Virus genome (UHGV): UHGV-0092003
Direction: 5' to 3' (one strand)
DNA length: 64,000 bases
Source: a virus
Numbering within the stretch: position 1 is the stretch's first letter; each line of letters starts with the position of its first letter. This document shows, one piece after another, positions 30,524-62,307 of this stretch. The notes beneath the pieces are model-generated. The model saw nothing but the letters and a program-made list of their open reading frames with translations, was not told the origin of the DNA and did not search any database. The position numbers and the translations under genes are program-made.

Positions 30524-30540
30524 GAAAACATTTTGTTTTC
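30524..30540. promoter_or_regulatory. dyad GAAAACA-TTT-TGTTTTC (family B)
   Basis: Perfect 7-bp arms, about 28 nt upstream of the parA ATG. Confidence 0.5.
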
Positions 30541-30568
30541 AAAACTAAAAACAGTACAAGGCGAAACA

Positions 30569-31234
30569 ATGGATACCAGACTCATCATAGTTGGTGGGAC
30601 GAAGGGCGGACCGGGTAAGTCCACCATCGCCCAGCAGGTAGCAGCCTGTTTGCAGCTCAAGAAGAAGAAAAAGGTTCACGTTACCGACATCGACATCCAG
30701 CGCACCACGACAACCTGGTGCGAAGATCGGCGTAGTAACAAGAAGCTAGAACTTCTACCTTTTTCCTTCGTGGGTAACGAAATCATCAAGCACCTTCAAT
30801 CGCTCAATGGCCGTTACGAGTATATCGTTGTTGATGCTGGCGGCTTTGACTCCGAAATTCAGCGTGAAGCAATGTTGATCGCCGACGCCATACTGATTCC
30901 TCTTCGACCGAAGCGCAGAGACCTGAAGTCCTTACGAGACATTGACCCTGTTCTGGAAAGCGTCAAGGCAGAGAACCCGGAGGTTAAGATCCGCGTGGTG
31001 ATGAACCAATGTCCATCATTGCCTTCTCAGGTGTCTCGAATACTTGCATCAAAAGAAATCGTTGAGTCATTTGGCATTGAGGCCGTACCAGTTAACATCT
31101 ACAACCGAAATATCTATGACGATGCGGAAGAAGCTGGGCGCTCTGTTTTCGAAATGAAAGGCAAAGAGCGTGACAAAAAGGCTGAAGACGAGATTGAAGA
31201 GTTAGTTGATTATCTTATTAGTTTAGAGGGGTAG
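30569..31234 (+). CDS. parA: ParA-family partition ATPase
   Basis: Deviant Walker A KGGPGKST. Small type-Ib size from ATG 30569; ORF open from 30533. Confidence 0.75.
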   Translation: MDTRLIIVGGTKGGPGKSTIAQQVAACLQLKKKKKVHVTDIDIQRTTTTWCEDRRSNKKLELLPFSFVGNEIIKHLQSLNGRYEYIVVDAGGFDSEIQREAMLIADAILIPLRPKRRDLKSLRDIDPVLESVKAENPEVKIRVVMNQCPSLPSQVSRILASKEIVESFGIEAVPVNIYNRNIYDDAEEAGRSVFEMKGKERDKKAEDEIEELVDYLISLEG

Positions 31235-31239
31235 TATTC

Positions 31240-31614
31240 ATGAAAATGGGAAAAATGGGCGATCTTGCCAAACGTACCGTCGAAGAGACACCAGTTCAGG
31301 ATACTGAAGCAAAAGCGTCTAACTCTCCGATGCGTTCTCCGGTTCGACCACAGGGGAGACCTACCCGCGGGAAGTCCAGCATTAAAAGCCGTACCATGAG
31401 CATCGAGGATGAGTTTATCAGCCTGATCTCAGTCATGGAGAATGTTGACCGCTGGAACAGATTCACACGTTCAGATGTCATTCGTGCCGCTATCATGAAT
31501 CTGGCAAGTGAGTCACCGGAGCGGATCGCAGAGACAATTTCTGTACTGCGAGAAACTCCAGCTTCTGAGGCGGAGATGCGCGGCGAGCAAATTCGTCGTG
31601 AGCTGGAGCAGTAA
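31240..31614 (+). CDS. ParB/ParG-like partition DNA-binding protein (putative)
   Basis: Small basic protein immediately after parA. Confidence 0.4.
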   Translation: MKMGKMGDLAKRTVEETPVQDTEAKASNSPMRSPVRPQGRPTRGKSSIKSRTMSIEDEFISLISVMENVDRWNRFTRSDVIRAAIMNLASESPERIAETISVLRETPASEAEMRGEQIRRELEQ

Positions 31615-31704
31615 CATCGGCGTCTACCCCTTAATATGTTTTAAAAGAAAAAGCTTTAAATACTATACAGAGCCAGGCTTGGTTTAGACTAACCCAGAAA
31701 TCTT

Positions 31705-31739
31705 AAAAGAATGAGGCGCTTTCAGCGCCTTATTCTTTG
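31705..31739. terminator. bidirectional terminator
   Basis: AAAAGAAT-GAGGCGC…GCGCCT-TATTCTTT palindrome between convergent genes. Confidence 0.65.
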
Positions 31740-31815
31740 TATCTGGAGTGTTATCAAAGACCTTGCTCCTATAGTTATTATATTTCTGGTGTTTGTTTTT
31801 AAATATTATGGGTGA

Positions 31816-32292
31816 TCAGAATGTGCATTCCTTTTTAATGATATGAGAAAGAACTTGGAAAGCTGGGCGCTGCCACTCGGTAAGAGTGTTTTTGTTGTAG
31901 ACTCTCACACCATTCATAACCTTCCCATCTATTCCAGTCGCTAGTGTTGAGTTATGTTCCCGATATGCAGAGGCTTCTTTTTCAACTGCGTCCAAAAAGT
32001 TCTTGATCGAAAAGTTCGGGCATTTTTTCTTTGTGGTTTCATAATGACTCTGGATAACGGAGTCCAGATAACCATTGCAGTAACCCCAATCTCTAGCGTT
32101 TTTGGGATCTTCAGCATTTTTGCAGGATTGATACCACTCAGAGATTTTAGGTAAAGAAGGATCTATCATTTTATCGCTAGGGAATGCCTTTGGTATAGAT
32201 AGCGGAGAGTTGTATTGTGTTTGAGCAAAAATAGGGTTAGATAGCAGTGCAAATAATAACGGTGCTGATAGTATATTCTTTGAATTAATCAC
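31816..32292 (-). CDS. secreted protein (signal peptide), AT-rich moron
   Basis: N-terminal signal peptide …SNPIFA|QT; Cys-containing; AT-rich context. Confidence 0.45.
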   Translation of the reverse strand: MINSKNILSAPLLFALLSNPIFAQTQYNSPLSIPKAFPSDKMIDPSLPKISEWYQSCKNAEDPKNARDWGYCNGYLDSVIQSHYETTKKKCPNFSIKNFLDAVEKEASAYREHNSTLATGIDGKVMNGVRVYNKNTLTEWQRPAFQVLSHIIKKECTF

Positions 32293-32450
32293 TGTTATGT
32301 ACTCCGAATATAAGTTATTGATTTTATGATATAGGTATTGCTTAATTTAGCATCTCAATTCTCTATCGTATGACTTTTGCACCGTCGTCAACAACCTTTC
32401 TTTTCCGCTTTCAAAAACCCACGCCAGCGTTTATCATTTGGCGAAAATGG

Positions 32451-32471
32451 TAAGTAAGAACTTATTTAGGT
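32451..32471. promoter_or_regulatory. family-A related element TAAGTAAGAACTTATTTAGGTATGG
   Basis: Shares GTAAG-N-ACTTATTTA…GGTATGG with the sites at 48191 and 61149. Confidence 0.4.
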
Positions 32472-33212
32472 ATGGACAGATTATTAGTGACACCAGACGG
32501 GGCGAAGTACGAGTTCATGCAGGAAATGACTACCGCGGACATGGACAGATGGGTATCCGAGAACATCGGACTCTCTCGCTGTGCCGGCGAGACAGAGCTG
32601 TTTGCAACAAAGTGGTTCGATTATCGCAACATGCATCCGCTGGTTGCCACCTGCCTTTTCTCTGAAATCTACAAAACTGAGTACGCACGAATCATGCTGA
32701 CGCACGGTCGTGACGACTTCCAGCGTGCTCCATACCGCACCGGATTGAAGCGTGTTGCATATCAGGATCAGGGGATGGGTGTAAAAACATCTCTGTGGCG
32801 TGCTCGCCAGTTCGCGGACAGGTATTGCTGTTCGTATGAGTATTACATCTCGACGATTCTAAGCATCGCGGCACAACGTCTTTGGGCCAATCTCCCGCGC
32901 CCCCAGCATCTGTGGCAGGACGATTTGGTCGAAATCTTTGAGCAGAAGCTGGCACGCCGCTCCCAGATCCGCATCGATGACAGTATTTTCAGCTATCACA
33001 ACATGCCCCAGCTGGCAGCGCCCGAAATGCAGAAAGATTACTGCATGTGGGTTATCAGGCACATTGATGCAATGAAGCCCTCATCCCGCGTTAATGGCGT
33101 TCTCTCAGCCGTATATCTCCGCAGACTTATCCCGGAAACAGTGGCCGCTAAGCGATACCCAAAATTGATACATGAAGCGAGAGATCTGTATTTGAGCGCC
33201 TGTGAAGACTAA
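32472..33212 (+). CDS. hypothetical protein (246 aa), possible replication accessory/helicase loader
   Basis: Position directly upstream of the helicase only. Confidence 0.25.
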   Translation: MDRLLVTPDGAKYEFMQEMTTADMDRWVSENIGLSRCAGETELFATKWFDYRNMHPLVATCLFSEIYKTEYARIMLTHGRDDFQRAPYRTGLKRVAYQDQGMGVKTSLWRARQFADRYCCSYEYYISTILSIAAQRLWANLPRPQHLWQDDLVEIFEQKLARRSQIRIDDSIFSYHNMPQLAAPEMQKDYCMWVIRHIDAMKPSSRVNGVLSAVYLRRLIPETVAAKRYPKLIHEARDLYLSACED

Positions 33213-33221
33213 TCATAATTC

Positions 33222-33237
33222 AGAAAACAAGTTGTTT
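33222..33237. promoter_or_regulatory. dyad GAAAACA-AGT-TGTTTA (family B)
   Basis: About 20 nt upstream of the helicase start. Confidence 0.45.
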
Positions 33238-33256
33238 AAAACAATAAGGAAAGCAC

Positions 33257-34618
33257 ATGAGTACCGTCCCTTCCACACTCGAAACACCTGTTCACACAGG
33301 ACGACCGTTATCTGAAGAGTTTGACGCCGGCTTTGAAGATCGACTGGCTGCTTACTACTGCCGCGACCGAGAGTTCCTGATTAGAGCCGGTGACTTGGTT
33401 CTGCCTGAGCAATTCTCAAACAAGGCGAATGGGTATCTGGTCAATATCGTTGCCGGTTACTTCCGCTCGTACAAAAGCTCGCCGTCGAAAGAGTTTATCA
33501 TCGACATGATCAAGGAAGCGAAGAAACGCGGAAAGATTCGCGAAGAGTTCGTACCTGAAGTCGTTGAGGCGATGAAGCGCATTCTGGCCGAAAAGCTGGA
33601 AGACACCGGTTACATGATTGACCGTGTTGTAACGTTCGCACGTTCCGTCGCCTTTGATGACGCGTTTATCAAAGCGGCCGAGCTGAAGGAGAAAGGCGAG
33701 TTTGAACGCGCGATGCAGGTCATGCAGAAGGTCGATCTGGTTGGCGCCTCTGATATGGACGACGTTTACGATTATCTCGCCCGAGCTGGGGAGCGTCACG
33801 AGCGTCGTGAGTATGAGGCGTCAGAAGACTTTATCCCAAACAGCATTACAACCGGCATTCCTCTGCTGGACAAAATGCTTCACCAGAAAGGCTGGGGGCG
33901 TAAAGAACTGGTGCTGTTTATGGGCTTCGCAAAGTCTGGTAAGTCGACGGCCATGGGTGAGTTCGGTATTAACGCCACGCTGAAAGGCTACAACGTCTTG
34001 TATGTCTCTCTGGAGGTTCACAAAGACATTCTTTCAGATCGTTGGGATGCTCGCATTTCTGAAACGGAAATGTCCAAGCTCATCGAACGCCGTGATGATA
34101 TCGCCGACAAACTGCGCTCAATAGGTGCTGGTTCGAAAGTGGGTAGCATGTGGATTGTTGAGCGTCGCGCTAACACGTTCTCACATGCAGATCTCGACCG
34201 TTTGCTCAGCAACATGAAAGCTAACGGGATGATGCCAGACATGGTCATTGTCGACTATGCGGATCTGATGCGTGCCACTACACCAACAAAAGACCCGCGC
34301 AATGATGTGAAAGACATTTACACCGACCTGCGTGCTGTGATGGATAAGCACGACGTGGCAGGTATGACAGCGTCCCAGACCAACCGTGAAGGTGGTGCCT
34401 CTGAAGTGGCAACGATGATGCACGCCGCGGACAACATCGAGAAGGTTCGTATTTGTGATTTGATTATCTCAATCAACAAAACCGAAGAGGAAGAGGCTAA
34501 AGGTGAGGCGCGTCTGTATTTTGCTGGTTCGCGTAACCAGAAAGGCGGGGTCAGTCTGCGCGTACTTCAGGATCTGGAACAAATGCGATTCATTAAGCGA
34601 ATCATTGACGTGATGTAA
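33257..34618 (+). CDS. DnaB-like replicative helicase
   Basis: Walker A GFAKSGKST and Walker B VIVDYADLM, RecA-like C-terminal fold. Confidence 0.7.
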   Translation: MSTVPSTLETPVHTGRPLSEEFDAGFEDRLAAYYCRDREFLIRAGDLVLPEQFSNKANGYLVNIVAGYFRSYKSSPSKEFIIDMIKEAKKRGKIREEFVPEVVEAMKRILAEKLEDTGYMIDRVVTFARSVAFDDAFIKAAELKEKGEFERAMQVMQKVDLVGASDMDDVYDYLARAGERHERREYEASEDFIPNSITTGIPLLDKMLHQKGWGRKELVLFMGFAKSGKSTAMGEFGINATLKGYNVLYVSLEVHKDILSDRWDARISETEMSKLIERRDDIADKLRSIGAGSKVGSMWIVERRANTFSHADLDRLLSNMKANGMMPDMVIVDYADLMRATTPTKDPRNDVKDIYTDLRAVMDKHDVAGMTASQTNREGGASEVATMMHAADNIEKVRICDLIISINKTEEEEAKGEARLYFAGSRNQKGGVSLRVLQDLEQMRFIKRIIDVM

Positions 34619-34704
34619 AAAAAAGGCGTTCCAAAACGGAGCGCCTTCACTTCAATTCAGAAATTCAAGCTTTCTTTTGCTAATAAAACCACAAAAGAAA
34701 ACAC

Positions 34705-34752
34705 ATGTACGGTCATATTAATCAATGGCCGGCTAAATGCAAGGTTTATTAA
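34705..34752 (+). CDS. 15-aa upstream leader ORF
   Basis: Canonical AAGAAAACACATG context. Its stop TAA abuts the primase ATG. Confidence 0.3.
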   Translation: MYGHINQWPAKCKVY

Positions 34753-35868
34753 ATGTCAGAATTAAAAGAATTGTTGGAAGAATTCGACTTTGAGCAATGG
34801 CTAGATACTGAGGGGATCTCATATCGTCGCGGCTCAAGGACTTCGAAGGGGCGTGAAGTTAACATCCGGGAATGTCCGTGTTGCAAAAGCAGTAAGTGGA
34901 AGGTTTACTTCAATCTAACAACGGGCCTGGGCAAGTGCTTCGCTGGCGATCACCCGGAGGAAGTGCAGTTTAACAAGCTGAACTTCATCAAATACCATAC
35001 CGGCGAATCGTGGCGCGGATTGCAGCGTTACATCCGCAACGAGTTGATGCAGCAAGGCTGGCGACCGAAAGAGGAAGAGGTTGAGCTGAAGTCGGATGTT
35101 GAGCTGACGTCTGAAGTTATCCTGCCACCGCATTACCAGCTGCCAATCGAGGGGCAGTTACCAACGTATCTCGTTGATCGTGACATCTCCCCGGAGCTGG
35201 CTACTTACTTCGATCTCCGCTACTGCGTAGAAGGTACGCACGTCTATCTCGATGAACGTAATGGCCGACCCCACATTCAGTCGTTCGACATGCGCATCCT
35301 GATCCCCATTTACGATTTGGACGGCAAGATGCGAACGTTTCAGGGACGTGATATCACCGGGGAATCGGATCGCCGTTATCTCTTCCCAATATCGTTACCA
35401 GCGTCGGGCAAGTTTCTCTATAACGGACATAACGCCATCGGAAAACGCACTGTAATCGTTTCTGAGGGCGCTTTTGACGTTATGGGTATCAAGCGTGCTC
35501 TTTTTGCTGAGGAAACGCTGAGAGAGTATGTGGAGCCGATAGGAACGTTCGGTATGCACTTGTCCGGCACGCTGGATGGTGAGAACGAAGATCAGCTTGG
35601 CGCATTTTTGAAGCTGAAGCAAAAAGGATTAGAGACGGTCGTAATGATGTGGGACTCCGAAAAACAGGCAATACACAACACGTTCGGTGCGGCCAAGCGA
35701 TTAGCCGGCATTGGGTTGCGTGTGAAAATCGCTTGTCTAGGAGAGGAAGGACTAGACCCAGGTGATGCGACAATCGAGCAGGTTCTTAAAGCCTACTATC
35801 GAGCGAAGCCATACACCAAGATGCTCGAAATGATGGCGAAACTACACGGTATTAAAGCACTTCTCTGA
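34753..35868 (+). CDS. DNA primase (DnaG-like: zinc-binding + TOPRIM)
   Basis: CPCCKSS…CFAGDH zinc motif; TOPRIM VIVSEGAFDVMGI. Confidence 0.7.
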   Translation: MSELKELLEEFDFEQWLDTEGISYRRGSRTSKGREVNIRECPCCKSSKWKVYFNLTTGLGKCFAGDHPEEVQFNKLNFIKYHTGESWRGLQRYIRNELMQQGWRPKEEEVELKSDVELTSEVILPPHYQLPIEGQLPTYLVDRDISPELATYFDLRYCVEGTHVYLDERNGRPHIQSFDMRILIPIYDLDGKMRTFQGRDITGESDRRYLFPISLPASGKFLYNGHNAIGKRTVIVSEGAFDVMGIKRALFAEETLREYVEPIGTFGMHLSGTLDGENEDQLGAFLKLKQKGLETVVMMWDSEKQAIHNTFGAAKRLAGIGLRVKIACLGEEGLDPGDATIEQVLKAYYRAKPYTKMLEMMAKLHGIKALL

Positions 35869-35878
35869 CCGCAAAAAA

Positions 35879-35896
35879 GATAAGTATTTACTTATC
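35879..35896. promoter_or_regulatory. palindrome GATAAGTA-TT-TACTTATC (family A)
   Basis: Perfect 8+2+8 inverted repeat upstream of 35934. Confidence 0.5.
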
Positions 35897-35933
35897 ATTT
35901 TGTATAAGATCCACAAAAAACGAAGGAGAGCAC

Positions 35934-36851
35934 ATGTATATCAAAAGCATTGATGAGGCTGTCAGGAAAGCCATTAGTGACGCCTCGCACCTCTTTAAAG
36001 ATCGAGATGTAGAGCAGGTGGTGAAAGAGGCTTGTGAGAAGGCGAATCAGCGAATCTCCATTAAGATGCCAGTCACCATATCCACACCGGATGAGCCTTG
36101 GATTTACATTTCGTCAGCTTTAACGGCTGATCGGAACTTCGAGCTGTTCGTCATCGTCAATCTGACTGACGTCGCCGAGGACTATCTGAAAGCGAAGGTG
36201 TTTCAGGGCGTCTTTTATGCAGGAAGACCGCGGCCAGCGATGTCACTTTACGAGAAGTCGATAATGATAAAAGCCGAAGATTATGAATCTTACGTCGGCC
36301 CTGCAGCGGTAAAAAACTTCGCTAACTATATGTTGGAAAGCGGCGTTCTGCAGGCTCCAGAGTTTGATCATGTCCTGCGCTCACTGAGAGCCACGATGAC
36401 GACGGAAGTTGTTTCAATGCCGGACATCCCTAAAGTTGTAGATGATGTATCAATGACCGGGGCAATGGCTTTGTCTGCCGTGCATTCGAGCGCATTCGAG
36501 GCGCCAGGCTATTCTCGCGCATTTTCGCTTAAAGCACCGAGTGGCATCATCGACGCGATCCTAGACCAGAAGTCGTCTCAGGCAAAAAACCGTTTCAATG
36601 AAAGCATTGAAATGCAGCTCTTCAGCGAATACGACGGCAACATGGAAGATGTTGAGGCTGTAAAGGCGGTATCCAAATGCTTTGGTGGTCTCTTTACTCG
36701 GCCTGGAGACATGATCACTCGCCTTGGTTATGACAAAGCGGCCATGCTCTCGGAAGGCAAAAGCTACGCTCTCGCTCACGTCCGTGAAGCGATAAAACAT
36801 GCAGAAGTACACAGCCTCGTCGCGGAAAACCCTCTTTGGGGTTCTTGGTAA
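35934..36851 (+). CDS. hypothetical protein (305 aa)
   Basis: Canonical RBS context GAAGGAGAGCACATG. Confidence 0.5.
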   Translation: MYIKSIDEAVRKAISDASHLFKDRDVEQVVKEACEKANQRISIKMPVTISTPDEPWIYISSALTADRNFELFVIVNLTDVAEDYLKAKVFQGVFYAGRPRPAMSLYEKSIMIKAEDYESYVGPAAVKNFANYMLESGVLQAPEFDHVLRSLRATMTTEVVSMPDIPKVVDDVSMTGAMALSAVHSSAFEAPGYSRAFSLKAPSGIIDAILDQKSSQAKNRFNESIEMQLFSEYDGNMEDVEAVKAVSKCFGGLFTRPGDMITRLGYDKAAMLSEGKSYALAHVREAIKHAEVHSLVAENPLWGSW

Positions 36852-36907
36852 CAATTCCCTCGTAAAAAATCTTTCAAGCCTGCGCCAGAGCATTAGACTG
36901 GCGCAAT

Positions 36908-36927
36908 GATAAGTAAACATTTACTAT
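36908..36927. promoter_or_regulatory. family-A palindrome variant GATAAGTAA-ACAT-TTACTAT
   Basis: Right half has a 1-nt deletion relative to consensus. Confidence 0.35.
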
Positions 36928-36935
36928 AAGGATCT

Positions 36936-39186: not shown

Positions 39187-39374
39187 TAAGTGACCTGGTT
39201 GGTTTTGGTTTGTCGACCTTTTTGTTAGGTTTCATTCTGGGTGGAATGTTGTTCGTATCAATAAAGAAGGACAATGTTAAGGCCGGAGTCATGGAGTTCA
39301 GAGGGCGGATTTACAAAATTGTTGATGTGACTTCTGAAGCGAAGGGAATTTACAGCAAGGAGATTGAAGAGTGA
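39183..39374 (+). CDS. small membrane protein
   Basis: N-terminal TM; paralogous to the ORF at 39601. Confidence 0.35.
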   Translation: MISDLVGFGLSTFLLGFILGGMLFVSIKKDNVKAGVMEFRGRIYKIVDVTSEAKGIYSKEIEE

Positions 39375-39586
39375 TCCAATTAAACAAATTGGAAAAGAGC
39401 ACGCTTCGAGAGATAAGCCAGTGGGAGAATTTTTACGAACACTGGCGCCCGAAGACTCGTGCAAAACTGGAGCGGATGGGGTTCGTTGAAAATATCGCCC
39501 CTGAAGGGAAACAAAAGAATTTTCAGCTGACGACCAGAGGTAAGACTGTTCTGGCTGAACTTGTCAACGCAGGAGCTTTTAGTTGA
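39371..39586 (+). CDS. hypothetical 71-aa protein
   Basis: ORF with coupled start. Confidence 0.3.
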   Translation: MIQLNKLEKSTLREISQWENFYEHWRPKTRAKLERMGFVENIAPEGKQKNFQLTTRGKTVLAELVNAGAFS

Positions 39587-39600
39587 TCCCATATCTTTTG

Positions 39601-40774: not shown

Positions 40775-40857
40775 GCAAACAAAGCAGTCTGGTTGACTGC
40801 GGCCGAGGAAGACGTCTTATCCGGCAGAGAGTGGTTCGATTCCGCTTGTTTGCGCCA
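40775..40857 (+). tRNA. tRNA-like gene with aberrant anticodon arm
   Basis: Perfect acceptor GCAAACA/TGTTTGC. D-stem GCAG/CTGC with GG in the loop. T-arm AGTGG-TTCGATT-CCGCT. Discriminator G plus encoded CCA. The 29-nt region in the anticodon-arm position gives no canonical 5-bp stem with a 7-nt loop. Confidence 0.45.
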
Positions 40858-55996: not shown

Positions 55997-56435
55997 GGAC
56001 AAGGCGATCATCAAAGAAGTGATGGATGACATCAGGCTTGATACGCATGATTTGGACGCGGTCTGGCGTCGTCAGCCGGAGCTTGTCGCCATTTATGGTT
56101 TTAAACAGGTTGAGGCTGAAAGCGCTGCGAATGCTGCGAAGCGGGATTTGGAATCTATCGAGGCGCGACTCTATTCGACGACGCGTGCCGGTCTGAGTTT
56201 CGACGGTGTGAAGATCAGCGAATCGACCATTGAAGCCAAAATAAAGTCGGCTCCGGCGTATCTTTCGGCTCGCCAAAAGTACGATGACGCGAAGTACCTC
56301 GCTGAGTTTTACAAGCAGGTTGTTAACGCGCTCGGACACCGTCGAGACATGATCGTTCAGGCGTCTAAAAAGGCAATTTCCGAATACGAAAGAACAGGTG
56401 TTGAACGATTCAACGCCCCTAAAAATGTATCTTGA
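55995..56435 (+). CDS. hypothetical protein (146 aa), possible recombination mediator
   Basis: Position adjacent to the SSB, FEN and RecA-family genes only. Confidence 0.25.
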   Translation: MDKAIIKEVMDDIRLDTHDLDAVWRRQPELVAIYGFKQVEAESAANAAKRDLESIEARLYSTTRAGLSFDGVKISESTIEAKIKSAPAYLSARQKYDDAKYLAEFYKQVVNALGHRRDMIVQASKKAISEYERTGVERFNAPKNVS

Positions 56436-56455
56436 TAATAAGTGATCGCTTATCT
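56436..56455. promoter_or_regulatory. family-A related palindrome GATAATAAG-TGATCG-CTTATCTATC
   Basis: ATAAG/CTTAT arms; upstream of the SSB gene. Confidence 0.35.
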
Positions 56456-56501
56456 ATCATAACCAAGTGCAATAAAAGCCATTAACAATAAAGGAAAACA
56501 C

Positions 56502-57479
56502 ATGTCCGCTTTAATGAACCTTCTGAAGAAAAGCCAAGAAGTTGCGAAAAACGCACGCGGCAATCGCGGAAACGATCTGCAAAAGATGCAACCAGGCGAA
56601 AACTACGTTCGTATCATCCTGAACAAAGACGACCCTGACAATATTCCATTCTCTCACAAGTACGGCATTCACTATGCCAAAACTAAAGGCGAAGATGGGA
56701 AGGACGTATACAGCGCTCACCTGTGCTTCCAGCATACCCATGATAAGCCGTGCGAAATGTGCGAAATGGTTATGGAAGCTAAAGCGAAGTACAAAGGCAA
56801 CAAAGCCATGGAAAAAGTCATCGACGATATGCGCGCCTCTCCGCGTATGGCTGTTGTCGGCATGTGGTCTCAGAAAGAAGACTTCAGCGACACCGATAAG
56901 ACTTCTCTCATCGATATGCCTATGTCCGTGTTTGACGACCTGATGGACGCCATTATGCAGGATATGAACGATGAGATCGGCGAACCGCTGAGCCGCGAAA
57001 AAGGTTACGCGTATCAAATTACTCGTACCGGCTCTGGTCTGGATACTGACTACAAAATCAAGCCGATGCGTAAAAACAAAACAGCAGTTCCGGCTAAGTT
57101 CTGGGATAACCAACCGTCTCTGGAACAGTTTGTAAACCAGACCGATCCGACAAAACTGATGGCGACCTCCAAAATGATTGCTCGCGCGACCGGTATCGCA
57201 CTGCCAGCGTCAATGGGTTCAAGCGCCGGTGCTCTGCCAACCCCAACCGGCAAAGCAGCTGCATCTCTTCCGGGCATGTCCATTACCGGCGTAGATGATT
57301 CAACTGTTGAAGCCTCTTTGCTGGATAAAGAAGTTGAATACGCAAAAGAAGCCGTATTCGAGCCAGAAGAGAAAGAAGTGAAAGAGGTAAAAGAAGCGCC
57401 AGCAAGCGAGCCAGTAGCTGAGCCGGAAAACGAAGATCTGGATGACATTTACGCGCAACTTAACGCGCTTTCTATGTAA
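56502..57479 (+). CDS. ssDNA-binding protein (gp32-like, Zn-binding)
   Basis: HLCFQHTHDKPCEMCEM Cys/His cluster. Acidic C-terminal tail EDLDDIYAQL. Confidence 0.5.
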   Translation: MSALMNLLKKSQEVAKNARGNRGNDLQKMQPGENYVRIILNKDDPDNIPFSHKYGIHYAKTKGEDGKDVYSAHLCFQHTHDKPCEMCEMVMEAKAKYKGNKAMEKVIDDMRASPRMAVVGMWSQKEDFSDTDKTSLIDMPMSVFDDLMDAIMQDMNDEIGEPLSREKGYAYQITRTGSGLDTDYKIKPMRKNKTAVPAKFWDNQPSLEQFVNQTDPTKLMATSKMIARATGIALPASMGSSAGALPTPTGKAAASLPGMSITGVDDSTVEASLLDKEVEYAKEAVFEPEEKEVKEVKEAPASEPVAEPENEDLDDIYAQLNALSM

Positions 57480-57524
57480 GCCAGCCGTTGATTTTAAAGG
57501 CGTCTTCGGACGCCTTATTTATTC

Positions 57525-58502: not shown

Positions 58503-58759
58503 TTGCGTCAATTATTACTGGAAAATCCACTACGCCGACCGCGCTGGCGAAGGAGTTAGTCTTCACCTATGGCGAGTATGTTGTGTCTGATTTTAACGCG
58601 TGCATCATCGGTCACAAAATCGCTCTGACAGCGCGTGAAGTAGATATCGTGAAAGGCCATATTCTCACCATCATTGAGCGATCCGCAAAAATGATGAACT
58701 GCGACACCATCACATTTAACCGTGAACAAGCCGAAAAAGAAATCGGCTTAACTAAATAA
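58499..58759 (+). CDS. hypothetical 86-aa protein
   Basis: Coupled ORF. Confidence 0.3.
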   Translation: MIASIITGKSTTPTALAKELVFTYGEYVVSDFNACIIGHKIALTAREVDIVKGHILTIIERSAKMMNCDTITFNREQAEKEIGLTK

Positions 58760-58775
58760 AACCAAAGGAAAACAC

Positions 58776-59843
58776 ATGAAAAAGTCACCATTAGCAGTAG
58801 CCATGAAAAAGCGTATCGGCGGAAATGATGAGATCCAAAAAGTCGAGCAATGGCTGGATACCGGTTTCCCCCCGTTAAACGAAGCCGTTTCTGGTGATCT
58901 GGAAGGCGGGCTTCCTTGTGGGCGTATTGTGGAGATTTTTGGGCCTCCGTCTGCAGGCAAAACTTTCCTCGCAACCCGCGCGATGATTGCTGCGCAGAAA
59001 GTTGGTGGTATTGCGGTATTCCTCGATCATGAAAACAGTTTTGACGTTGGTCTGGCAGAAGTTATGGGACTTCAGTCTGATGAAGATGAAGGTAATTGGG
59101 TTTACAAGCAGCCAGACACCTTTGAGGATGCTATCGACTTGACCGGGCAAATCCTGTCTCTGGTTCGCAAGGAGAATCTGATCCCAGCTGAAGCGCCCAT
59201 CGTCATTGTTTATGACTCACTGGCCTCCATGGTTCCGCGCCAGAAGTTCGAAAAGTTCGAGAAGATGGCAGATGGCACGGCCAAAGAGAAAGACGAGCTG
59301 AATATGAACGACAATACGGCACTGGCTCGCGCGACTTCGGCAAATCTCCCAACGCTGGCTAAGTGGGCGCAGAAGTACAATGCCTGCCTCATTTTCCTGA
59401 ACCAAGTGCGTACAAAAATGGGCGTCATGTTCGGAGACCCTACCACTTCCCCAGGCGGCGACTCCCCAAAATTCTACGCTTCCGTCCGCATCAAGCTGGG
59501 TGGCGGTCAGTTGAAAGAAGGTGGCGATCGCGTTGGTCAGCTGGTTAAAGCAGAGTGCGTAAAAAACAAGGTGGCGCCACCGTTCCAGAAATGCGAGTGG
59601 AACTTCTACTTCGACCCTGCGCGTGGTCTGGACGTCGTAGAATCGCTTGTAGAGTACATGCTTGAAAAGGGCTACATTCCGAAGACGTCCACAGGCCGCA
59701 TCGAGATTGGCGACAAGAAGTACACCAAGTCGCAGATCGTCGATATGTACCGCGAGAAGGAATTAAGCGAAATCGTGAAGGCGATTAAGTCGATTCAGGC
59801 GAAGATGAAGTCGAAAGATGAACCTGAAGTCGCTGAAGCCTGA
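58776..59843 (+). CDS. RecA-family recombinase
   Basis: GGLPCGRIVEIFGPPSAGKTFLA Walker A in a RecA-like context. Confidence 0.7.
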   Translation: MKKSPLAVAMKKRIGGNDEIQKVEQWLDTGFPPLNEAVSGDLEGGLPCGRIVEIFGPPSAGKTFLATRAMIAAQKVGGIAVFLDHENSFDVGLAEVMGLQSDEDEGNWVYKQPDTFEDAIDLTGQILSLVRKENLIPAEAPIVIVYDSLASMVPRQKFEKFEKMADGTAKEKDELNMNDNTALARATSANLPTLAKWAQKYNACLIFLNQVRTKMGVMFGDPTTSPGGDSPKFYASVRIKLGGGQLKEGGDRVGQLVKAECVKNKVAPPFQKCEWNFYFDPARGLDVVESLVEYMLEKGYIPKTSTGRIEIGDKKYTKSQIVDMYREKELSEIVKAIKSIQAKMKSKDEPEVAEA

Positions 59844-59998
59844 TCCAGTCATCTAGCCCAAACTTGAATTAGCAATCTCCCGGCGCAGAGCTTAACGTCA
59901 TGCACCAGTCAGCTCTGTGCCGAAACGGGACTCCTGATATGATAAACTAACCAGGCGCGTCTCGCTTCGTTGCGCAATCAGAATCACCTACTTTTCAC

Positions 59999-60022
59999 CC
60001 GCTCATACGAGCGGTTTTTTTT
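59999..60022 (+). terminator. rho-independent terminator
   Basis: CCGCTC-ATAC-GAGCGG followed by T8. Confidence 0.75.
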
Positions 60023-60092
60023 ATGCAAAGATTCGGTCTTGACGAACACAGCGAAGAAGACATCATTTGATACCTTCATGCTATGCCATATA

Positions 60093-60121
60093 TTGACTCT
60101 GCCAATGACTTCATCATAGAT
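60093..60121 (+). promoter_or_regulatory. candidate σ70 promoter TTGACT-17-ATAGAT
   Basis: Placed between the two terminators with no ORF downstream. Confidence 0.35.
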
Positions 60122-60127
60122 TGTCAA

Positions 60128-60339
60128 GGTGGTGAATCCCCCTGAGCGGTGGGGCGACCAGTCAGTTACAGTGATCTGTAAATGCAGCGCGAGCCATGTC
60201 GGCTGGGACATGCTCACCGGGAGGCACCCGGCACCACAAGCGTTACTAAGCAAATTCGTAGCAGAATTAACCCCTTGTTAACCCTGTTATGTTTAACAAA
60301 TCCAATTTCAACCCGCCCCCCCTTGTGCGGGTTTTTTTT
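60128..60339 (+). ncRNA. candidate ~210-nt small RNA (promoter to terminator)
   Basis: Bounded by the candidate promoter and the strong terminator at 60312–60339. Contains several internal inverted repeats. The only plus-strand ORF here is antisense to the minus-strand gene. Confidence 0.3.
60312..60339 (+). terminator. rho-independent terminator
   Basis: CCCGC-CCCCCTTGT-GCGGG followed by T9. Confidence 0.7.
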
Positions 60340-60352
60340 TAACTCAAACTGC

Positions 60353-61078
60353 TTAGCGGTCTTCCTTGCTCCCCTTTCTGACGCCAACTTTAGAGAAATG
60401 GCCATACATTGCGCCAAGGCTGGCAAATGGAAATTTTTCGCCCATTTGTGCCCGAATATCCTTACCTGTATATTCGCCAGATGCCCACATATCAGTACAT
60501 GCAGCTTTAAGTTGAACACGGGGATCTACCGGTTTCGGTTTAAGGGGCTTCTTACGAGGTTTTCTCGGATGCTCAGGTATGATGCCATTTTTCTTAAACC
60601 AGCGTCTAAGTGCGCCGACGTTTTTCATACCTAACTCGGGAGAGAGTTCATCAAAGATTTGTCGGGTTGTGTGCTGGCCGGCTTTCCTTAACTCCACGGC
60701 TCTTTCTCTCAAAATTGCTCGCGGATTATTCGGAGCGTCGGGCGACTCGGAGTTTCTTATGTATCCATTTTGCCGGAACCAGAAAAGAAGAGATCCCTTG
60801 CGCTGTATACCCAGACGGCCTTTAAACATTTCAAGTAATTCGGGAGCGCTATACAGACCTGAAATCCATAGCGCGGCAGCTTCATGCCTGTTTTCATTGA
60901 TTTTTTCTTTGGACTTGGAGCCTCGGATCTTGCCTTGTGATGAAAGCCAATGAACGAGTTCAGCTGAAGAACTCATGCCCATTCGTTTTCCTAACACCAT
61001 AAGGATCATGTCAGCATCAAAGGCCCCACTCTCCCATAGCTCAATGGCTTTTAACCCAGCCAACTCTCTGTCTGTCAT
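60353..61078 (-). CDS. DNA-binding protein with three tandem ~45-aa HTH-like repeats
   Basis: Repeats LGKRMGMSSSAELVHWLSSQGKIR, FKGRLGIQRKGSLLFWFRQNGYIR and LSPELGMKNVGALRRWFKKNGIIP. Only minus-strand gene in this block. Confidence 0.5.
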   Translation of the reverse strand: MTDRELAGLKAIELWESGAFDADMILMVLGKRMGMSSSAELVHWLSSQGKIRGSKSKEKINENRHEAAALWISGLYSAPELLEMFKGRLGIQRKGSLLFWFRQNGYIRNSESPDAPNNPRAILRERAVELRKAGQHTTRQIFDELSPELGMKNVGALRRWFKKNGIIPEHPRKPRKKPLKPKPVDPRVQLKAACTDMWASGEYTGKDIRAQMGEKFPFASLGAMYGHFSKVGVRKGSKEDR

Positions 61079-61148
61079 TCGTCTTCCAGGCCGCTAAAAA
61101 GAACATGTTATGCAGGATAAAAGCAGGGTTCAATATGTTTCGCTTGAT

Positions 61149-61169
61149 GATAAGTAAGCACTTATTTAT
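61149..61169. promoter_or_regulatory. palindrome GATAAGTAAGCACTTATTTAT (family A)
   Basis: 16-mer GTAAGCACTTATTTAT shared with the site at 48191. Confidence 0.5.
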
Positions 61170-61200
61170 TATGTATAAGCTTTTCAACAAGAGAAAACAC

Positions 61201-61404
61201 ATGACCACAAAACTGTATTTAAAAATCTGCGCACTGATCTCGTTTGCGATGTCGATGGCAGGGTTAGTCATCCCCTATCTCGTGTCTCAAAAGAGCGACG
61301 TTGCTGTCCTGATTGGCTTCGTGCTGATGTTCACAACCCCCTTCGCTTCCTATAAAGCGGCTAAAAGCATTATCCATCAACTAATTACAGGAAAAACAAA
61401 ATGA
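61201..61404 (+). CDS. small 2-TM membrane protein (NfeD-like partner candidate)
   Basis: Two hydrophobic helices; coupled to the SPFH gene. Confidence 0.4.
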   Translation: MTTKLYLKICALISFAMSMAGLVIPYLVSQKSDVAVLIGFVLMFTTPFASYKAAKSIIHQLITGKTK

Positions 61405-62228
61405 AAAAGGGAATTATCGCACTGGCTGTCGTAGCGGCCATGACCATGTTAACAGGCTGCGAGTACGTTAAGCCTGGTGAAGTGGGTATCAAGGTCAACA
61501 AATTAGGTGACGACAAAGGTGTTGGGGAAGTTGTTGGCGTTGGCCGTCAATGGATTGGCTGGAATACCACTCTGTACACCTTCCCTACCTTCAAGCAGAT
61601 GAAGTCGTATGAAGACGCCTTCAACTTCCAAATGAGCGATGGTACAGCGATCGGCTATCACATTGGTGTAACTTACAAAGTAGACCCGACCAAAGTCACC
61701 ACCATCTTCCAGACCTACCGTAAAGGCGTCGACGATATCACCGAAACCGATCTGAAACAGAAGATCGCAGACGTACTGATTAAACAGGCCAGTCACATGA
61801 CCACTGACCGCTTTATCGACGGCGGCAAAACTGAACTTTTGGATAATTCACTGAAAGCTATTCAGACCGAAATGGGGCCGGTTGGAATTCAGGTTCTCAG
61901 TCTGTCTTGGATGGGTAAACCGGAGTACCCGCCGAGCGTTATCGAGTCCATTAACGCCAAAGTAACGGCAAACCAGACCACGCTGCAACGTGAGCAGCAG
62001 GTTAAGCAAAAAGAAGCTGAAGCAAACATGGTTCGCGCCCAGGCAGCGGGTGAAGCTGACGCCAAGGAAACTCTGGCTAAGGCTGATGCTGAATCTATCC
62101 GCATCCGCGGTGATGCTCTCCGCCAGAACCCGGAGGTTATGCAGCTGGAAGCCATCAACAAATGGAACGGCACACTGCCGCAGTACATGACCAACGGCGC
62201 GAATACCCCATTCATTACCGTTAAGTAA
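61401..62228 (+). CDS. SPFH/band-7 domain lipoprotein
   Basis: Lipobox LTG|C. Band-7-like core followed by an Ala/Glu-rich coiled-coil. Confidence 0.55.
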   Translation: MKKGIIALAVVAAMTMLTGCEYVKPGEVGIKVNKLGDDKGVGEVVGVGRQWIGWNTTLYTFPTFKQMKSYEDAFNFQMSDGTAIGYHIGVTYKVDPTKVTTIFQTYRKGVDDITETDLKQKIADVLIKQASHMTTDRFIDGGKTELLDNSLKAIQTEMGPVGIQVLSLSWMGKPEYPPSVIESINAKVTANQTTLQREQQVKQKEAEANMVRAQAAGEADAKETLAKADAESIRIRGDALRQNPEVMQLEAINKWNGTLPQYMTNGANTPFITVK

Positions 62229-62290
62229 TTCAGTAATCAAAAGGCGTCATTTTTGGCGCCTTTCTCTTCTCAGTAAAATATCAAACATAA

Positions 62291-62307
62291 GAAAACAACT
62301 TGTTTAA
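62291..62307. promoter_or_regulatory. dyad GAAAACA-ACT-TGTTTAA (family B)
   Basis: Directly upstream of the AAGGAG RBS of 62317. Confidence 0.45.

What the first reader, a model, noticed from the sequence alone, without database searches (positions are those of the whole stretch)
30524..62307. Second dyad family GAAAACA-N3-TGTTTT(C) upstream of parA, helicase, dnaE-C and 62317 ORF
Five copies are present: 30524–30540, 33222–33237, 54148–54163, 54173–54188 and 62291–62307. Each lies 15–35 nt upstream of a start codon.

The two copies at 54148–54188 face each other and form a 15-bp stem-loop exactly in the gap between the split dnaE ORFs.

This is a distinct operator class from family A. Its presence at parA suggests the partition protein (ParB/ParG-like, 31240–31614) or a replication-control regulator as binder.
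Basis: seen in the sequence. Interest (0 to 1): 0.65.

Follow-up and report, generated by a model that had tools for sequence, protein, structure and literature searches.

The report
Conserved operator of phage-plasmid early promoters
The five short inverted repeats are real and belong to a family of about twenty nearly identical 13-base palindromes placed at fixed positions on the promoters of a Klebsiella phage-plasmid, most likely docking sites for a repressor, possibly the plasmid's own partition protein, that keeps the viral genes silent while the element lives as a plasmid.

Summary
All five dyads exist, are intergenic, and are far above chance (7 pattern hits against 0.17 expected).

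The window is an SSU5-like phage-plasmid of Klebsiella. The true core is the 13-bp palindrome AAACAA-N-TTGTTT, extended on one side to AGAAAACAA. A near-identical full plasmid has 0 in 30 kb of structural genes and 15 in the 40 kb beyond the window.

The arms are invariant and the centre base is free in 80 relatives whose helicase is only 69–72% identical, and in E. coli phage Cyrano (19 sites).

Sites sit at three positions relative to -10 elements:
- exactly 19 nt upstream of TGnGATAAT (centre about -38);
- 4–6 nt downstream;
- 13–14 nt downstream.

These are roughly in helical phase, which points to DNA-level operators. Single sites do not fold as RNA.

In published Cyrano lysogen RNA-seq, dyad-linked genes are at or near background (5.7–25.5 against 9.8) except the parA operon.

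The gene after parA (31240–31614) appears to be a ribbon-helix-helix protein with an invariant putative DNA-reading strand. It is my best candidate binder (about 0.45), but this is unproven. The operator function itself I rate at about 0.8.

The parts
30524..30540 (+). Dyad B site upstream of parA: GAAAACATTTTGTTTTC. It is a perfect 7-3-7 palindrome with 1 mismatch to the 13-bp core, and ends 28 nt before ATG 30569.
   Evidence: A dyad is present about 50 nt before parA in relatives whose fetched DNA reaches parA.
33223..33238 (+). Dyad B site upstream of the DnaB-like helicase. The core at 33225–33237 starts 5 nt after CATAAT (TTGAGC-16-CATAAT), which is class IIb.
   Evidence: The site is conserved upstream of the helicase in nearly all of the 80 relatives, with a variable centre base.
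54148..54163 (+). Dyad B site, first of a pair in the gap between the dnaE halves. The core starts 4 nt after TAAAAT.
54173..54188 (+). Dyad B site, second of the pair, ending 17 nt before ATG 54206. Its centre base is complementary to that of the first copy.
54150..54187 (+). A 15-bp stem-loop that the two adjacent dyads can form in a transcript.
   Evidence: -16.9 kcal/mol, z = -4.0.
62291..62307 (+). Dyad B site upstream of the 85-aa ORF. The core starts 13 nt after TAAAAT (class IIa). It follows a terminator-like hairpin and ends 9 nt before ATG 62317.
   Evidence: An orthologous site follows the SPFH/stomatin gene in Cyrano at 58595.
30569..31234 (+). parA: a small Walker-type partition ATPase of 221 aa.
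   Evidence: Pfam AAA_31, MipZ, VirC1, CbiA and ParA.
31240..31614 (+). P124: the candidate binder. It has a putative ribbon-helix-helix centromere-binding or repressor domain and a disordered Arg-rich N-terminal tail.
   Evidence: Alignments A1 and A2 show invariant RPQGRPxRGK..I.SRTMS.EDE and TRSDVIRAA. Remote homologues hit RHH_8 at 1.5e-5 and RHH_1. The AF2 monomer has helices at 55–67 and 77–89. The Cyrano orthologue is expressed in lysogens.
33257..34618 (+). DnaB-like helicase, the first gene of a dyad-controlled replication operon.
   Evidence: Pfam DnaB_C.
51763..54135 (+). dnaE N-terminal part, carrying the PHP, polymerase and finger domains.
   Evidence: It aligns to Cyrano DnaE residues 1–785.
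54206..55366 (+). dnaE C-terminal part (HhH domain onward), with its own dyad pair, Shine-Dalgarno sequence and ATG.
   Evidence: HHH_6. It aligns to Cyrano DnaE residues 784–1167.
62317..62574 (+). 85-aa ORF of unknown function, downstream of the last dyad.
   Evidence: phrog_13902, unknown function.

Best explanation
**What the dyads are.** They are DNA operators of a genome-wide regulon in an SSU5-like phage-plasmid. About 20 copies of AGAAAACAA-N-TTGTTT overlap sigma-70 promoters, many of the extended -10 type TGnGATAAT. These promoters drive partition, replication, nucleotide-metabolism, small 'early' genes and the terminase operon.

**Where they sit.** Each site occupies one of three positions on roughly the same face of the helix:
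- centred near -38;
- centred near +5;
- centred near +14.

A protein oligomer bound at any of these would exclude RNA polymerase or block its escape, keeping the genes off while the element is carried as a plasmid.

**Who binds.** The most likely binder is the small protein encoded right after parA (31240–31614). It looks like a ribbon-helix-helix protein of the ParG/omega type. Two dimers would each read one arm. It would repress its own parA operon only partially (autoregulation) and the other promoters fully. That would couple plasmid partition to silencing of the lytic programme.

**Shown:** the sites, their number, conservation and promoter-relative positions; the silence of linked genes in a related lysogen; and the family relationship of P124 to RHH proteins.

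**Inferred:** that the sites act on DNA, that they repress, and that P124 is the binder.
For: **Enrichment and placement.**
- Window: 7 pattern hits against 0.17 expected.
- Segment beyond the window: 15 sites against 0.16 expected. The structural 30 kb has none.
- All five window sites lie in the 10% of the window that is non-coding.

**Purifying selection of the kind expected for a symmetric DNA-binding protein.**
- Both arms are invariant while the centre base takes A, C, G or T.
- This holds across 80 IMG/VR relatives whose helicase is only 69–72% identical.
- It also holds in Cyrano (19 sites) and in a relative whose P124 is only 29% identical.

**Fixed promoter geometry.**
- Ten of ten upstream-type sites end exactly 19 nt before a TGn-extended -10, although the spacer sequences differ.
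- Downstream-type sites start 4–6 or 13–14 nt after a -10.
- Upstream and downstream pairs are 51 bp apart in both genomes.

**RNA structure.** Single sites do not fold: -1.3 to -2.1 kcal/mol, no better than shuffles.

**Lysogen RNA-seq of Cyrano** (PMC9928086, supplementary file 2).
- Dyad-linked genes are at or near the background of 9.8. Most read 5.7–12.9; the helicase reads 21 and CYRAN_111 reads 25.5.
- The exceptions are ParA at 50 and the P124 orthologue at 89. That is the pattern expected of an autoregulated repressor operon.

**P124 itself.**
- It is syntenic with parA in all relatives whose fetched DNA reaches that far.
- SRTMS and TRSDVIRAA are invariant in alignment A1, and the wider IKSRTMS stretch is nearly so (Q for K in some members), at 48–96% overall identity.
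- Profile hits include proteins that reach Pfam RHH_8 (1.5e-5, above cutoff) and RHH_1 over the same segment.
- ParA is a small Walker ATPase of the type Ib kind.

**Precedent.** RHH ParB proteins bind sites overlapping promoters, and two dimers bind an inverted pair of 7-bp repeats with high affinity (PMC9499535).
Against: - No binding data exist for any protein.
- The RHH assignment of P124 is indirect. P124 itself has no Pfam hit. Only 1 of 19 close homologues touches RHH_1, at E = 0.3. The AF2 monomer is of low confidence (pLDDT 61) and has no fold match. hhalign against ParG, omega, Arc and CopG is not significant.
- P124 is only about 51% identical between lineages, and down to 29%, while the site is invariant.
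- Y. pestis pMT1 has lost the small ParA and P124 yet keeps six dyads.
- Type Ib centromeres are normally arrays of repeats next to parA. Here there is one dyad at parA, and no other repeat array was found beside the operon.
- The motif is asymmetric: AGA is conserved on one flank only. A simple symmetric dimer does not explain this.
- Transcription start sites are predicted, not measured. The generic promoter scan found only one of the five window promoters.
Confidence: 0.45

Rival explanations
1. The sites are operators of the XRE-family (CI-like) lysogeny repressor encoded next to the integrase (47339–47644, minus strand). On this reading it acts as a P1 C1-style master repressor with scattered operators.
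For: - It is an HTH_3 protein.
- Its Cyrano orthologue is annotated as a putative repressor and is expressed in lysogens at 96 against a background of 9.8.
- Its recognition-helix region is conserved at 49% overall identity.
- It is retained in pMT1, which keeps six dyads.
- Dyad-linked genes are silent in lysogens.
Against: - No dyad lies within 5 kb of its gene in the window.
- Its own upstream region carries different palindromes of the GTAAG/CTTAC type. These are GGTAAGTGCTTACC in Cyrano and GTAGTAAGTAAGTAACTAC in the window. They resemble family A, not family B.
- Repressors of this kind normally autoregulate through their own operators.
Confidence: 0.12
2. The sites are bound by a small winged-helix protein made during lytic growth. 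It would switch early promoters off, or time the terminase operon. One candidate is the 88-aa LexA-DBD-like protein just upstream of terS (outside the window). Another is the 71-aa protein at 39371–39586.
For: - The 88-aa protein is the best conserved candidate: 78% identity with Cyrano and 75% with pMT1.
- It has a weak LexA_DNA_bind match at 3e-4.
- One or two dyads sit directly between it and terS in all three genomes.
- The 71-aa protein has a weak wHTH match and a Cyrano orthologue annotated as a regulator.
Against: - Both are at background in Cyrano lysogens, at 7.8 and 6.4. They cannot explain silencing of strong sigma-70 promoters during plasmid carriage.
- The Pfam matches are below the curated cutoffs.
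- No dyad lies upstream of their own operons.
Confidence: 0.12
3. The element acts in RNA. It would be a translational operator in 5' UTRs, bound by the FljA-family protein of the phage-plasmid (encoded outside the window), in the way FljA blocks fliC translation.
For: - Every SSU5-like genome examined encodes a PF03614 protein, including those of non-flagellated Klebsiella.
- Its AF2 model (pLDDT 89.5) is two Hfq/Sm-like domains, so it is an RNA binder.
- FljA is reported to prevent fliC mRNA translation (PMC2652032).
- The real fliC 5' UTR contains CAAGTTGT followed by ATAAGGAAA, as does the helicase site.
- Downstream-type dyads lie between the predicted start of transcription and the Shine-Dalgarno sequence. 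They offer an A-rich arm and a U-rich arm.
Against: - Upstream-type sites lie exactly 19 nt before a -10 element and 53–64 nt before the start codon. That is a promoter constraint, not a translational one.
- The exact reverse complementarity of the arms is unexplained for single-strand RNA recognition.
- Single sites do not form hairpins.
- The FljA-like protein is only 34–38% identical between lineages that share an identical site.
- It is barely expressed in Cyrano lysogens, at 18.
Confidence: 0.08
4. The dyad is a positive promoter element. It would be the binding site of an activator, or a substitute for the missing -35, that turns on extended -10 promoters in the manner of class II activation.
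For: - Upstream-type sites replace the -35 region of promoters that have only TGnGATAAT.
- Their position is strictly fixed.
- The right arm, TTGTTT, begins with the TTG of a -35 hexamer.
Against: - The centre at about -38 is 3–4 bp off the usual -41.5 position.
- The TTGTTT-to--10 spacing of 19 nt is too long for a -35 element.
- More than half of the sites lie downstream of the -10, at about +5 or +14, where binding represses.
- Extended -10 promoters do not need activation.
Confidence: 0.08
5. A host transcription factor shared by Klebsiella, Escherichia, Salmonella and Yersinia binds the site.
For: The site is invariant across elements living in different enterobacterial genera, while every candidate phage-plasmid regulator has diverged.
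Against: - I know of no enterobacterial regulator with this consensus. That rests on memory, not on a test.
- The nearest, IHF (WATCAANNNNTTR), misses at 2 of 9 specified positions.
- The motif could not be scanned in host chromosomes with the tools available.
Confidence: 0.05

Closest known systems
Omega (RHH ParB) of pSM19035 and its heptad sites
   Same: - A small ribbon-helix-helix protein encoded with a Walker ParA.
- Its sites overlap several promoters, including that of its own operon, so it is both partition protein and global repressor.
- Two dimers bind an inverted pair of 7-bp repeats with high affinity (PMC9499535).
   Different: - Omega sites are arrays of 7–10 WATCACW heptads at three promoter regions of a Firmicute plasmid.
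- Here there are single inverted pairs (AAAACAA / TTGTTTT) at about 20 promoters of an enterobacterial phage-plasmid.
- A two-repeat site is a poor ParA-ATPase cofactor for omega. The dyads may therefore be operators rather than full centromeres.
ParG / parH of TP228 (type Ib partition)
   Same: - A small ParA-type ATPase followed by an RHH protein with a flexible N-terminal tail.
- The protein binds upstream of the operon (PMC3130281 abstract).
- The Arg-rich tail of P124 resembles the ParG arginine-finger tail. This comparison rests on my own knowledge and was not tested.
   Different: - parH is a roughly 100-bp array of tetramer boxes next to the operon.
- No such array was found next to parA here.
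- There is no significant sequence similarity to ParG.
KorB and its OB operators on RK2
   Same: - A partition protein doubles as a global repressor.
- Its operator core is a 13-bp palindrome, TTTAGCSGCTAAA (OB oligonucleotide in PMC11790492).
- About a dozen copies are spread over the plasmid, some just upstream of promoters and some at a distance. The number and the site classes are from my own knowledge.
   Different: KorB is a ParB-family HTH CTPase clamp that slides and cooperates with KorA. P124 is not of the ParB family. The two ParB_N proteins of this element are silent in the Cyrano lysogen.
P1 C1 repressor with scattered operators
   Same: A phage-plasmid whose lytic genes, including a DnaB-like helicase, are held off by one repressor acting at many operators dispersed round the genome. 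This description is from my own knowledge.
   Different: C1 operators are asymmetric 17-mers, and c1 has its own operator. No C1 homologue was looked for here. The site sequence and the candidate proteins are unrelated.
Dispersed sopC centromeres of phage-plasmid N15
   Same: Partition-protein binding sites are scattered in a phage-plasmid genome and affect phage gene expression. The source is Ravin, Rech and Lane 2008 (J Bacteriol 190:3538), cited in PMC11652158.
   Different: N15 uses a type Ia SopAB system with four sites, and the reported effect is to facilitate late expression. Here the system is type Ib-like, with about 20 sites and inferred repression.

Membership tests
Type Ib partition locus (small ParA + RHH centromere-binding protein + sites) | A Walker-type ParA of about 200–230 aa without an N-terminal DNA-binding domain. 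| tested here: met
   The protein is 221 aa, and Pfam AAA_31, MipZ, VirC1, CbiA and ParA matches start at residue 4.
Type Ib partition locus (small ParA + RHH centromere-binding protein + sites) | The downstream gene encodes a small ribbon-helix-helix DNA-binding protein. | tested here: inconclusive
   The sequence signature is present, and remote homologues reach RHH_8 and RHH_1. P124 itself has no Pfam hit, the AF2 model is poor and there is no structural match.
Type Ib partition locus (small ParA + RHH centromere-binding protein + sites) | An array of repeated binding sites (the centromere) adjacent to the operon. | tested here: not met
   Only one dyad lies upstream of parA, and no repeat array was found in 30200–30600 or 31560–32500. 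The sites are dispersed instead.
Type Ib partition locus (small ParA + RHH centromere-binding protein + sites) | The protein binds the sites, stimulates ParA and stabilises the plasmid. | not testable with these tools
   This needs EMSA, ATPase assays and plasmid stability assays.
Repressor operator at sigma-70 promoters | The site overlaps the region occupied by RNA polymerase (about -55 to +20). | tested here: met
   For 24 sites in the two genomes the centres fall at about -38, +5 or +14 relative to -10-like hexamers. The remaining sites have no -10 meeting the ≥5-of-6 cut-off within reach. The promoters are predicted, not mapped.
Repressor operator at sigma-70 promoters | Linked genes are off when the presumed repressor is present. 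| tested here: met
   In Cyrano lysogen RNA-seq, dyad-linked genes are at or near background except the parA operon. This is correlation in a related element, not in this plasmid.
Repressor operator at sigma-70 promoters | A specific protein binds the site, and site mutations derepress. | not testable with these tools
   No binding or genetic data are available.
KorB/OB-type (ParB-family) global regulon | The binder is a ParB-family HTH protein with a CTP-binding N-terminal domain, expressed in the plasmid state. | tested here: not met
   The two ParB_N proteins (record positions 105754–107125) read 5 and 9.5 in Cyrano lysogens against a background of 9.8. P124 has no ParB domain.
FljA-type translational operator | The site lies in the 5' UTR close to the ribosome-binding site of the regulated mRNA. 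| tested here: inconclusive
   This is true for the downstream-type sites, at 9–42 nt before the start codon. It is not true for the 10 upstream-type sites, which lie 19 nt before a -10.
Intrinsic terminator or structured RNA element | A stable hairpin in the transcript. | tested here: not met
   Most single sites fold at -1.3 to -2.1 kcal/mol, no better than shuffles; the parA site reaches -5.0 kcal/mol (z = -2.7). Only the dnaE-gap pair forms a strong stem, and no U-tract follows it.

The most novel reading that the evidence does not exclude
The partition adaptor of SSU5-like phage-plasmids may be the master switch of the lysogenic state. On this reading one small RHH protein, made from the parA operon, uses about 20 dispersed dyads for two jobs. 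They serve as a distributed centromere and as operators that silence every early sigma-70 promoter, so that plasmid segregation and the lysis-lysogeny decision run through the same protein-DNA contacts. The same cassette (dyad plus leader plus start codon) would be mobile enough to have split dnaE into two separately controlled genes.
Probability: 0.25. Interest if true: 0.75.

Novelty: new member of a known kind. Interest (0 to 1): 0.5.

Why it matters
SSU5-like phage-plasmids are very common in clinical Klebsiella, E. coli, Salmonella and Enterobacter, and they include the ancestor of Y. pestis pMT1. 816 PLSDB plasmids carry this dnaE.

The full-text searches I ran found nothing on how these elements control the choice between plasmid carriage and lytic growth.

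A single invariant 13-bp site at about 20 promoters, with a short list of candidate binders, turns that question into a handful of direct experiments. It also gives a sequence signature for annotating early promoters in hundreds of such plasmids.

If the binder is the partition protein, the element would be a new example of partition-coupled global gene control. That would sit alongside KorB and omega, but in a virus.

Tried and rejected
**Identity of the window.** Megablast of the parA–helicase region against the phage collection found nothing. The plasmid collection identified the element.

**Generic scans.** The promoter and terminator scan was no better than shuffles and caught only the helicase promoter.

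**'Regulator' at 56502–57479.** It is a gp32-like SSB, not a regulator.

**The 241-aa 'HTH-repeat' protein.** It has no Pfam or PHROG match and is absent from Cyrano, so I rejected it as a general binder.

**FljA-like protein as a DNA-binding repressor.** I rejected this after AF2 and Foldseek showed tandem Hfq-like domains. It is kept only as an RNA-level rival.
- My remembered 'fliC leader' did not match the real one. The real leader came from metagenome contigs.
- The key FljA papers were not held.

**Fold of P124.** It could not be confirmed by structure.
- The AF2 monomer was poor.
- Foldseek against PDB returned nothing meaningful.
- HMM searches against PDB sequences were empty.

**Search for the FljA-like gene in viral contigs.** A single-sequence query found only 4 loci.

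**Exact-pattern scan of IMG/VR for AGAAAACAANTTGTTT.** It returned a mix of single chance hits and multi-hit SSU5-like contigs. No second phage group was evident.

**Distant P124 homologues.** One (L333) has two direct AAAACAA repeats before parA. Another (L334) has none. This is suggestive only.

**pMT1 as a natural knock-out of ParA and P124.** It keeps six dyads. Because it is a recently decayed element, this is uninformative.

Full report
**1. What the window is**

Bases 29000–36000 of the window are 100% identical to plasmid pB-KP1118-1 of Klebsiella pneumoniae (NZ_CP155713.1, 109.6 kb). They are 99.9% identical to NZ_CP103584.1.

The record carries terminase, portal, capsid, tape-measure and tail genes. 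It also carries parA, a DnaB-like helicase, primase, ligase, dnaE, nrdAB and an integrase. This is an SSU5-like phage-plasmid.

I fetched the whole of NZ_CP155713.1 as L003, L001 and L002. I also fetched the whole of the related E. coli phage-plasmid Cyrano (OV696614; L167–L169), for which lysogen RNA-seq has been published.

**2. The observation**

The pattern GAAAACANNNTGTTTT with up to one mismatch finds five sites. They are at 30524, 33223, 54148, 54173 and 62291, all on the + strand. Shuffles give 0.17 expected. Relaxing to AACA-N3-TGTT adds no more.

All five sites fall in the 10% of the window not covered by long ORFs.

The distances to the next start codon are 28, 18, 42, 17 and 9 nt, not 15–35.

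The two copies in the dnaE gap have complementary centre bases. In a transcript they can form a 15-bp stem of -16.9 kcal/mol with z = -4.0.

**3. The family is larger and the core is different**

Scanning the full plasmid shows that the conserved unit is the 13-bp palindrome AAACAA-N-TTGTTT. With up to one mismatch the counts are:

| Region of NZ_CP155713.1 | Sites | Note |
|---|---|---|
| 1–30 kb (structural genes) | 0 | |
| 30–70 kb | 6 | |
| 70–110 kb | 15 | 0.16 expected |

Cyrano has 19 sites.

A matrix of the 39 sites from both genomes gives the following:
- Positions -7 to -1 and +1 to +6 are nearly invariant.
- The centre base is free: A 8, C 11, G 11, T 9.
- There is an extension, A-G-A, on one flank only.

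**4. Conservation**

I fetched 80 IMG/VR relatives through the helicase protein. Helicase identity falls to 69–72% in most of them.

Nearly all still carry a perfect or near-perfect core just upstream of the helicase, and those whose fetched DNA reaches parA carry another about 50 nt upstream of it. The centre base varies freely.

A further relative, whose parA-adjacent protein is only 29% identical, keeps both sites.

Invariant arms with a free centre, and no compensatory changes, are what sequence-specific recognition of duplex DNA by a symmetric oligomer predicts.

**5. Position relative to promoters**

Printing the context of every site and tabulating -10-like hexamers shows three classes.

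| Class | Sites and where | Position of the 13-bp core | Estimated centre |
|---|---|---|---|
| I | 10 sites in the two genomes, none in the window | ends exactly 19 nt before an extended -10 (TGnGATAAT, TGCTAATAT or TGTGAAAAT); spacers differ in sequence but never in length | about -38 |
| IIa | window 62293 and eight others | starts 13–14 nt after a -10 | about +14 |
| IIb | window 33225 and 54150, and one or two more | starts 4–6 nt after a -10 | about +5 |

The centres assume the hexamer occupies -12 to -7.

The three positions are 42–43, 51 and 9–10 bp apart, so they lie roughly on one face of the helix. Where a promoter has both a class I and a class IIa site, the two are 51 bp apart in both genomes.

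The conserved AGA flank always faces the -10.

These regularities are tied to promoter elements, not to start codons. That is the main reason I place the function on DNA.

Most single sites do not form RNA hairpins better than shuffled sequence; only the parA site folds modestly better than shuffles (-5.0 kcal/mol).

**6. Expression in a lysogen**

Supplementary file 2 of PMC9928086 gives normalised read counts for Cyrano in an LF82 lysogen, with a background of 9.8.

Genes immediately downstream of dyads are at or near background:

| Gene | Reads |
|---|---|
| terS | 7.1 |
| helicase | 21 |
| CYRAN_47 | 7.8 |
| CYRAN_58 | 5.7 |
| nrdB | 12.9 |
| TciA | 7.0 |
| CYRAN_87 | 7.1 |
| CYRAN_93 | 6.3 |
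| CYRAN_101 | 7.5 |
| CYRAN_105 | 12.8 |
| CYRAN_106 | 12.2 |
| CYRAN_108 | 5.7 |
| CYRAN_110 | 6.7 |
| CYRAN_111 | 25.5 |

The exception is the parA operon: ParA reads 50, the next gene 89 and the third 55.

Many of these promoters have near-consensus extended -10 elements, so their silence implies repression. An operon that is preceded by the operator yet is partly on is what a negatively autoregulated repressor operon looks like.

This is correlation in a relative, not in this plasmid.

**7. Candidate binders**

*P124 (31240–31614), the gene after parA.*
- It is syntenic in all relatives whose fetched DNA reaches that far: ParA is about 75% identical and P124 about 51%.
- Alignments A1 and A2 show a variable N-terminus. 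This is followed by invariant RPQGRPxRGK, then the nearly invariant I-[K/Q]-SRTMS-x-EDE, a loop, and TRSDVIRAA.
- From established knowledge of Arc, CopG, ParG and omega proteins, this is the strand, helix A and helix B pattern of ribbon-helix-helix proteins. The strand reads the DNA.
- A profile search of 1.84 billion representatives found only 22 relatives. Among them, P0069 reaches Pfam RHH_8 (1.5e-5, above cutoff) and RHH_1 (4e-4). P0056, P0064 and P0071 touch RHH_1 over the equivalent segment.
- Direct tests on P124 itself were weak or empty.
- ParA is a small Walker ATPase.
- A distant homologue's parA has two direct AAAACAA repeats upstream. Another has none.

*XRE repressor (47339–47644, minus strand).*
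- It is expressed in lysogens and has a conserved helix-turn-helix.
- There is no family B dyad near its gene. GTAAG/CTTAC palindromes, which resemble family A, sit at its own promoter in both genomes.

*FljA-family protein (record positions 103105–103653, outside the window).*
- It matches PF03614 at 3e-26.
- It is present in all SSU5-likes but is only 34–38% identical between lineages.
- Its AF2 model (pLDDT 89.5) is two helix-plus-five-strand repeats. Each matches Hfq with probability 1.0 and TM about 0.8. It is therefore an RNA-binding protein.
- The real fliC leader shares CAAGTTGT and ATAAGGAAA with the helicase site. This keeps an RNA-level role for downstream-type sites alive, but it cannot explain class I.

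*Small winged-helix proteins.*
- There is one of 88 aa (just before terS) and one of 71 aa (39371–39586). Both are conserved but silent in lysogens.

*The 241-aa repeat protein (60353–61078) and the Rha protein.*
- Both lack Cyrano homologues.

*pMT1.*
- It lacks the small ParA and P124 but keeps six dyads, the XRE protein and the 88-aa protein. As a recently decayed element, it does not decide the matter.

**8. Mechanism proposed**

A phage-plasmid-encoded protein binds AGAAAACAA-N-TTGTTT as a dimer of dimers. One dimer reads each arm, as omega does on an inverted pair of heptads (PMC9499535).

Bound at -38, +5 or +14, it occludes RNA polymerase. I put the operator-repressor reading at about 0.8.

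That the protein is P124, so that partition and silencing share one protein, I put at about 0.45. The rivals are listed with their tests.

**9. Comparison with known systems**

It works like the global regulons of omega (pSM19035), KorB (RK2) and C1 (P1). It also recalls the dispersed centromeres of phage-plasmid N15 (reference in PMC11652158).

It is not a member of the KorB family. It fails the 'adjacent repeat array' criterion of a classical type Ib centromere.

The full-text searches I ran found no description of this motif or of SSU5-group regulation.

I therefore file it as a new member of a known kind, namely a multi-operator repressor regulon. A more novel reading is possible if the partition protein is the binder.

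**10. The dnaE gap**

In Cyrano and pMT1, dnaE is one ORF. In the window lineage it is split at residue about 785 with no loss of sequence. The split is made by about 70 nt carrying a stop codon, two dyads, a Shine-Dalgarno sequence and an ATG.

Only 35 of 816 PLSDB plasmids with this dnaE cover the junction. One other Klebsiella plasmid has an HNH endonuclease annotated at the point where its match to the query begins, just after the junction.

The dyad-leader-start cassette is closely similar at several genes. The split may reflect insertion of such a cassette, or the scar of a homing-endonuclease insertion.

Noticed in passing
window 803, 10918, 35880, 39986, 41891, 50258, 61150 (perfect); 4453, 32450, 48193, 56438 (1 mismatch or variant): A second dyad family, (G)ATAAGT-N4 or N8-ACTTAT, is usually followed about 10 nt later by TATAAG. 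It has roughly 15–17 sites per genome in both the Klebsiella plasmid and Cyrano, and these include structural-gene promoters.
   Followed up: partly
window 47645-47720; Cyrano (L168) 2604-2617: The XRE repressor's own upstream region carries GTAAG/CTTAC-type palindromes: GTAGTAAGTAAGTAACTAC in the window and GGTAAGTGCTTACC in Cyrano. These resemble family A half-sites, which suggests the XRE protein goes with family A rather than family B.
   Followed up: partly
window 51763-55366: dnaE is split at residue about 785 into two intact ORFs by a roughly 70-nt insert carrying a stop codon, two dyads, a Shine-Dalgarno sequence and an ATG. It is one ORF in Cyrano and pMT1. Only 35 of 816 PLSDB plasmids with this dnaE cover the junction. 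Another Klebsiella plasmid has a NUMOD4 HNH endonuclease annotated where its match begins, just after the junction.
   Followed up: partly
L002 33105-33653 (-), = NZ_CP155713.1 103105-103653 (outside the window): The FljA-family protein (PF03614, 'repressor of phase-1 flagellin') is predicted with high confidence (pLDDT 89.5) to be two tandem Hfq/Sm-like domains. That fits an RNA-binding translational repressor. It is conserved in position in all SSU5-likes, including those of non-flagellated Klebsiella, so it probably has targets on the element itself.
   Followed up: partly
L170 and related metagenome loci (fliC upstream): The Salmonella/Citrobacter-type fliC 5' UTR contains CAAGTTGT followed by ATAAGGAAA. 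It shares the central eight bases of the dyad and a leader layout similar to the helicase site at window 33223.
   Followed up: no
L002 27100-28635, = NZ_CP155713.1 97100-98635 (outside the window): A stretch of about 1.5 kb has no annotated gene yet carries two family B dyads (97243 and 97776) and A/C-rich repeats. It may be a non-coding RNA or an origin region.
   Followed up: no
L002 39203-39469 and the following intergenic stretch; Cyrano 57 and 82: An 88-aa protein with a weak LexA-DNA-binding-domain match is 75–78% identical across Klebsiella, E. coli and Y. pestis elements. It sits just before one or two family B dyads and the small terminase gene.
   Followed up: partly
L338/L339 (Y. 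pestis pMT1): pMT1 has lost the small ParA and P124 and uses a ParB-family system instead. It keeps six family B dyads, the XRE protein and the 88-aa protein.
   Followed up: partly
window 60353-61078 (-): A 241-aa minus-strand protein is built of four internal repeats of about 55 aa. It has no Pfam or PHROG match and no homologue in Cyrano, so it is a lineage-specific insertion among + strand genes.
   Followed up: partly
window 40775-40857: A tRNA-Phe (GAA) gene lies in an ORF-poor stretch. Cyrano has tRNA-Asn, tRNA-Thr and tRNA-Ser at the corresponding place.
   Followed up: no
window 13077-25967: A single 4296-aa ORF is annotated as a phage tail protein in the matching plasmid. That is far longer than the 1575-aa Cyrano host-specificity protein.
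   Followed up: no
window 29465-30260 (-): A GNAT toxin and DUF1778 antitoxin pair (KacAT-like) lies immediately upstream of, and divergent from, the parA promoter. The Cyrano orthologues are strongly expressed in lysogens.
   Followed up: no
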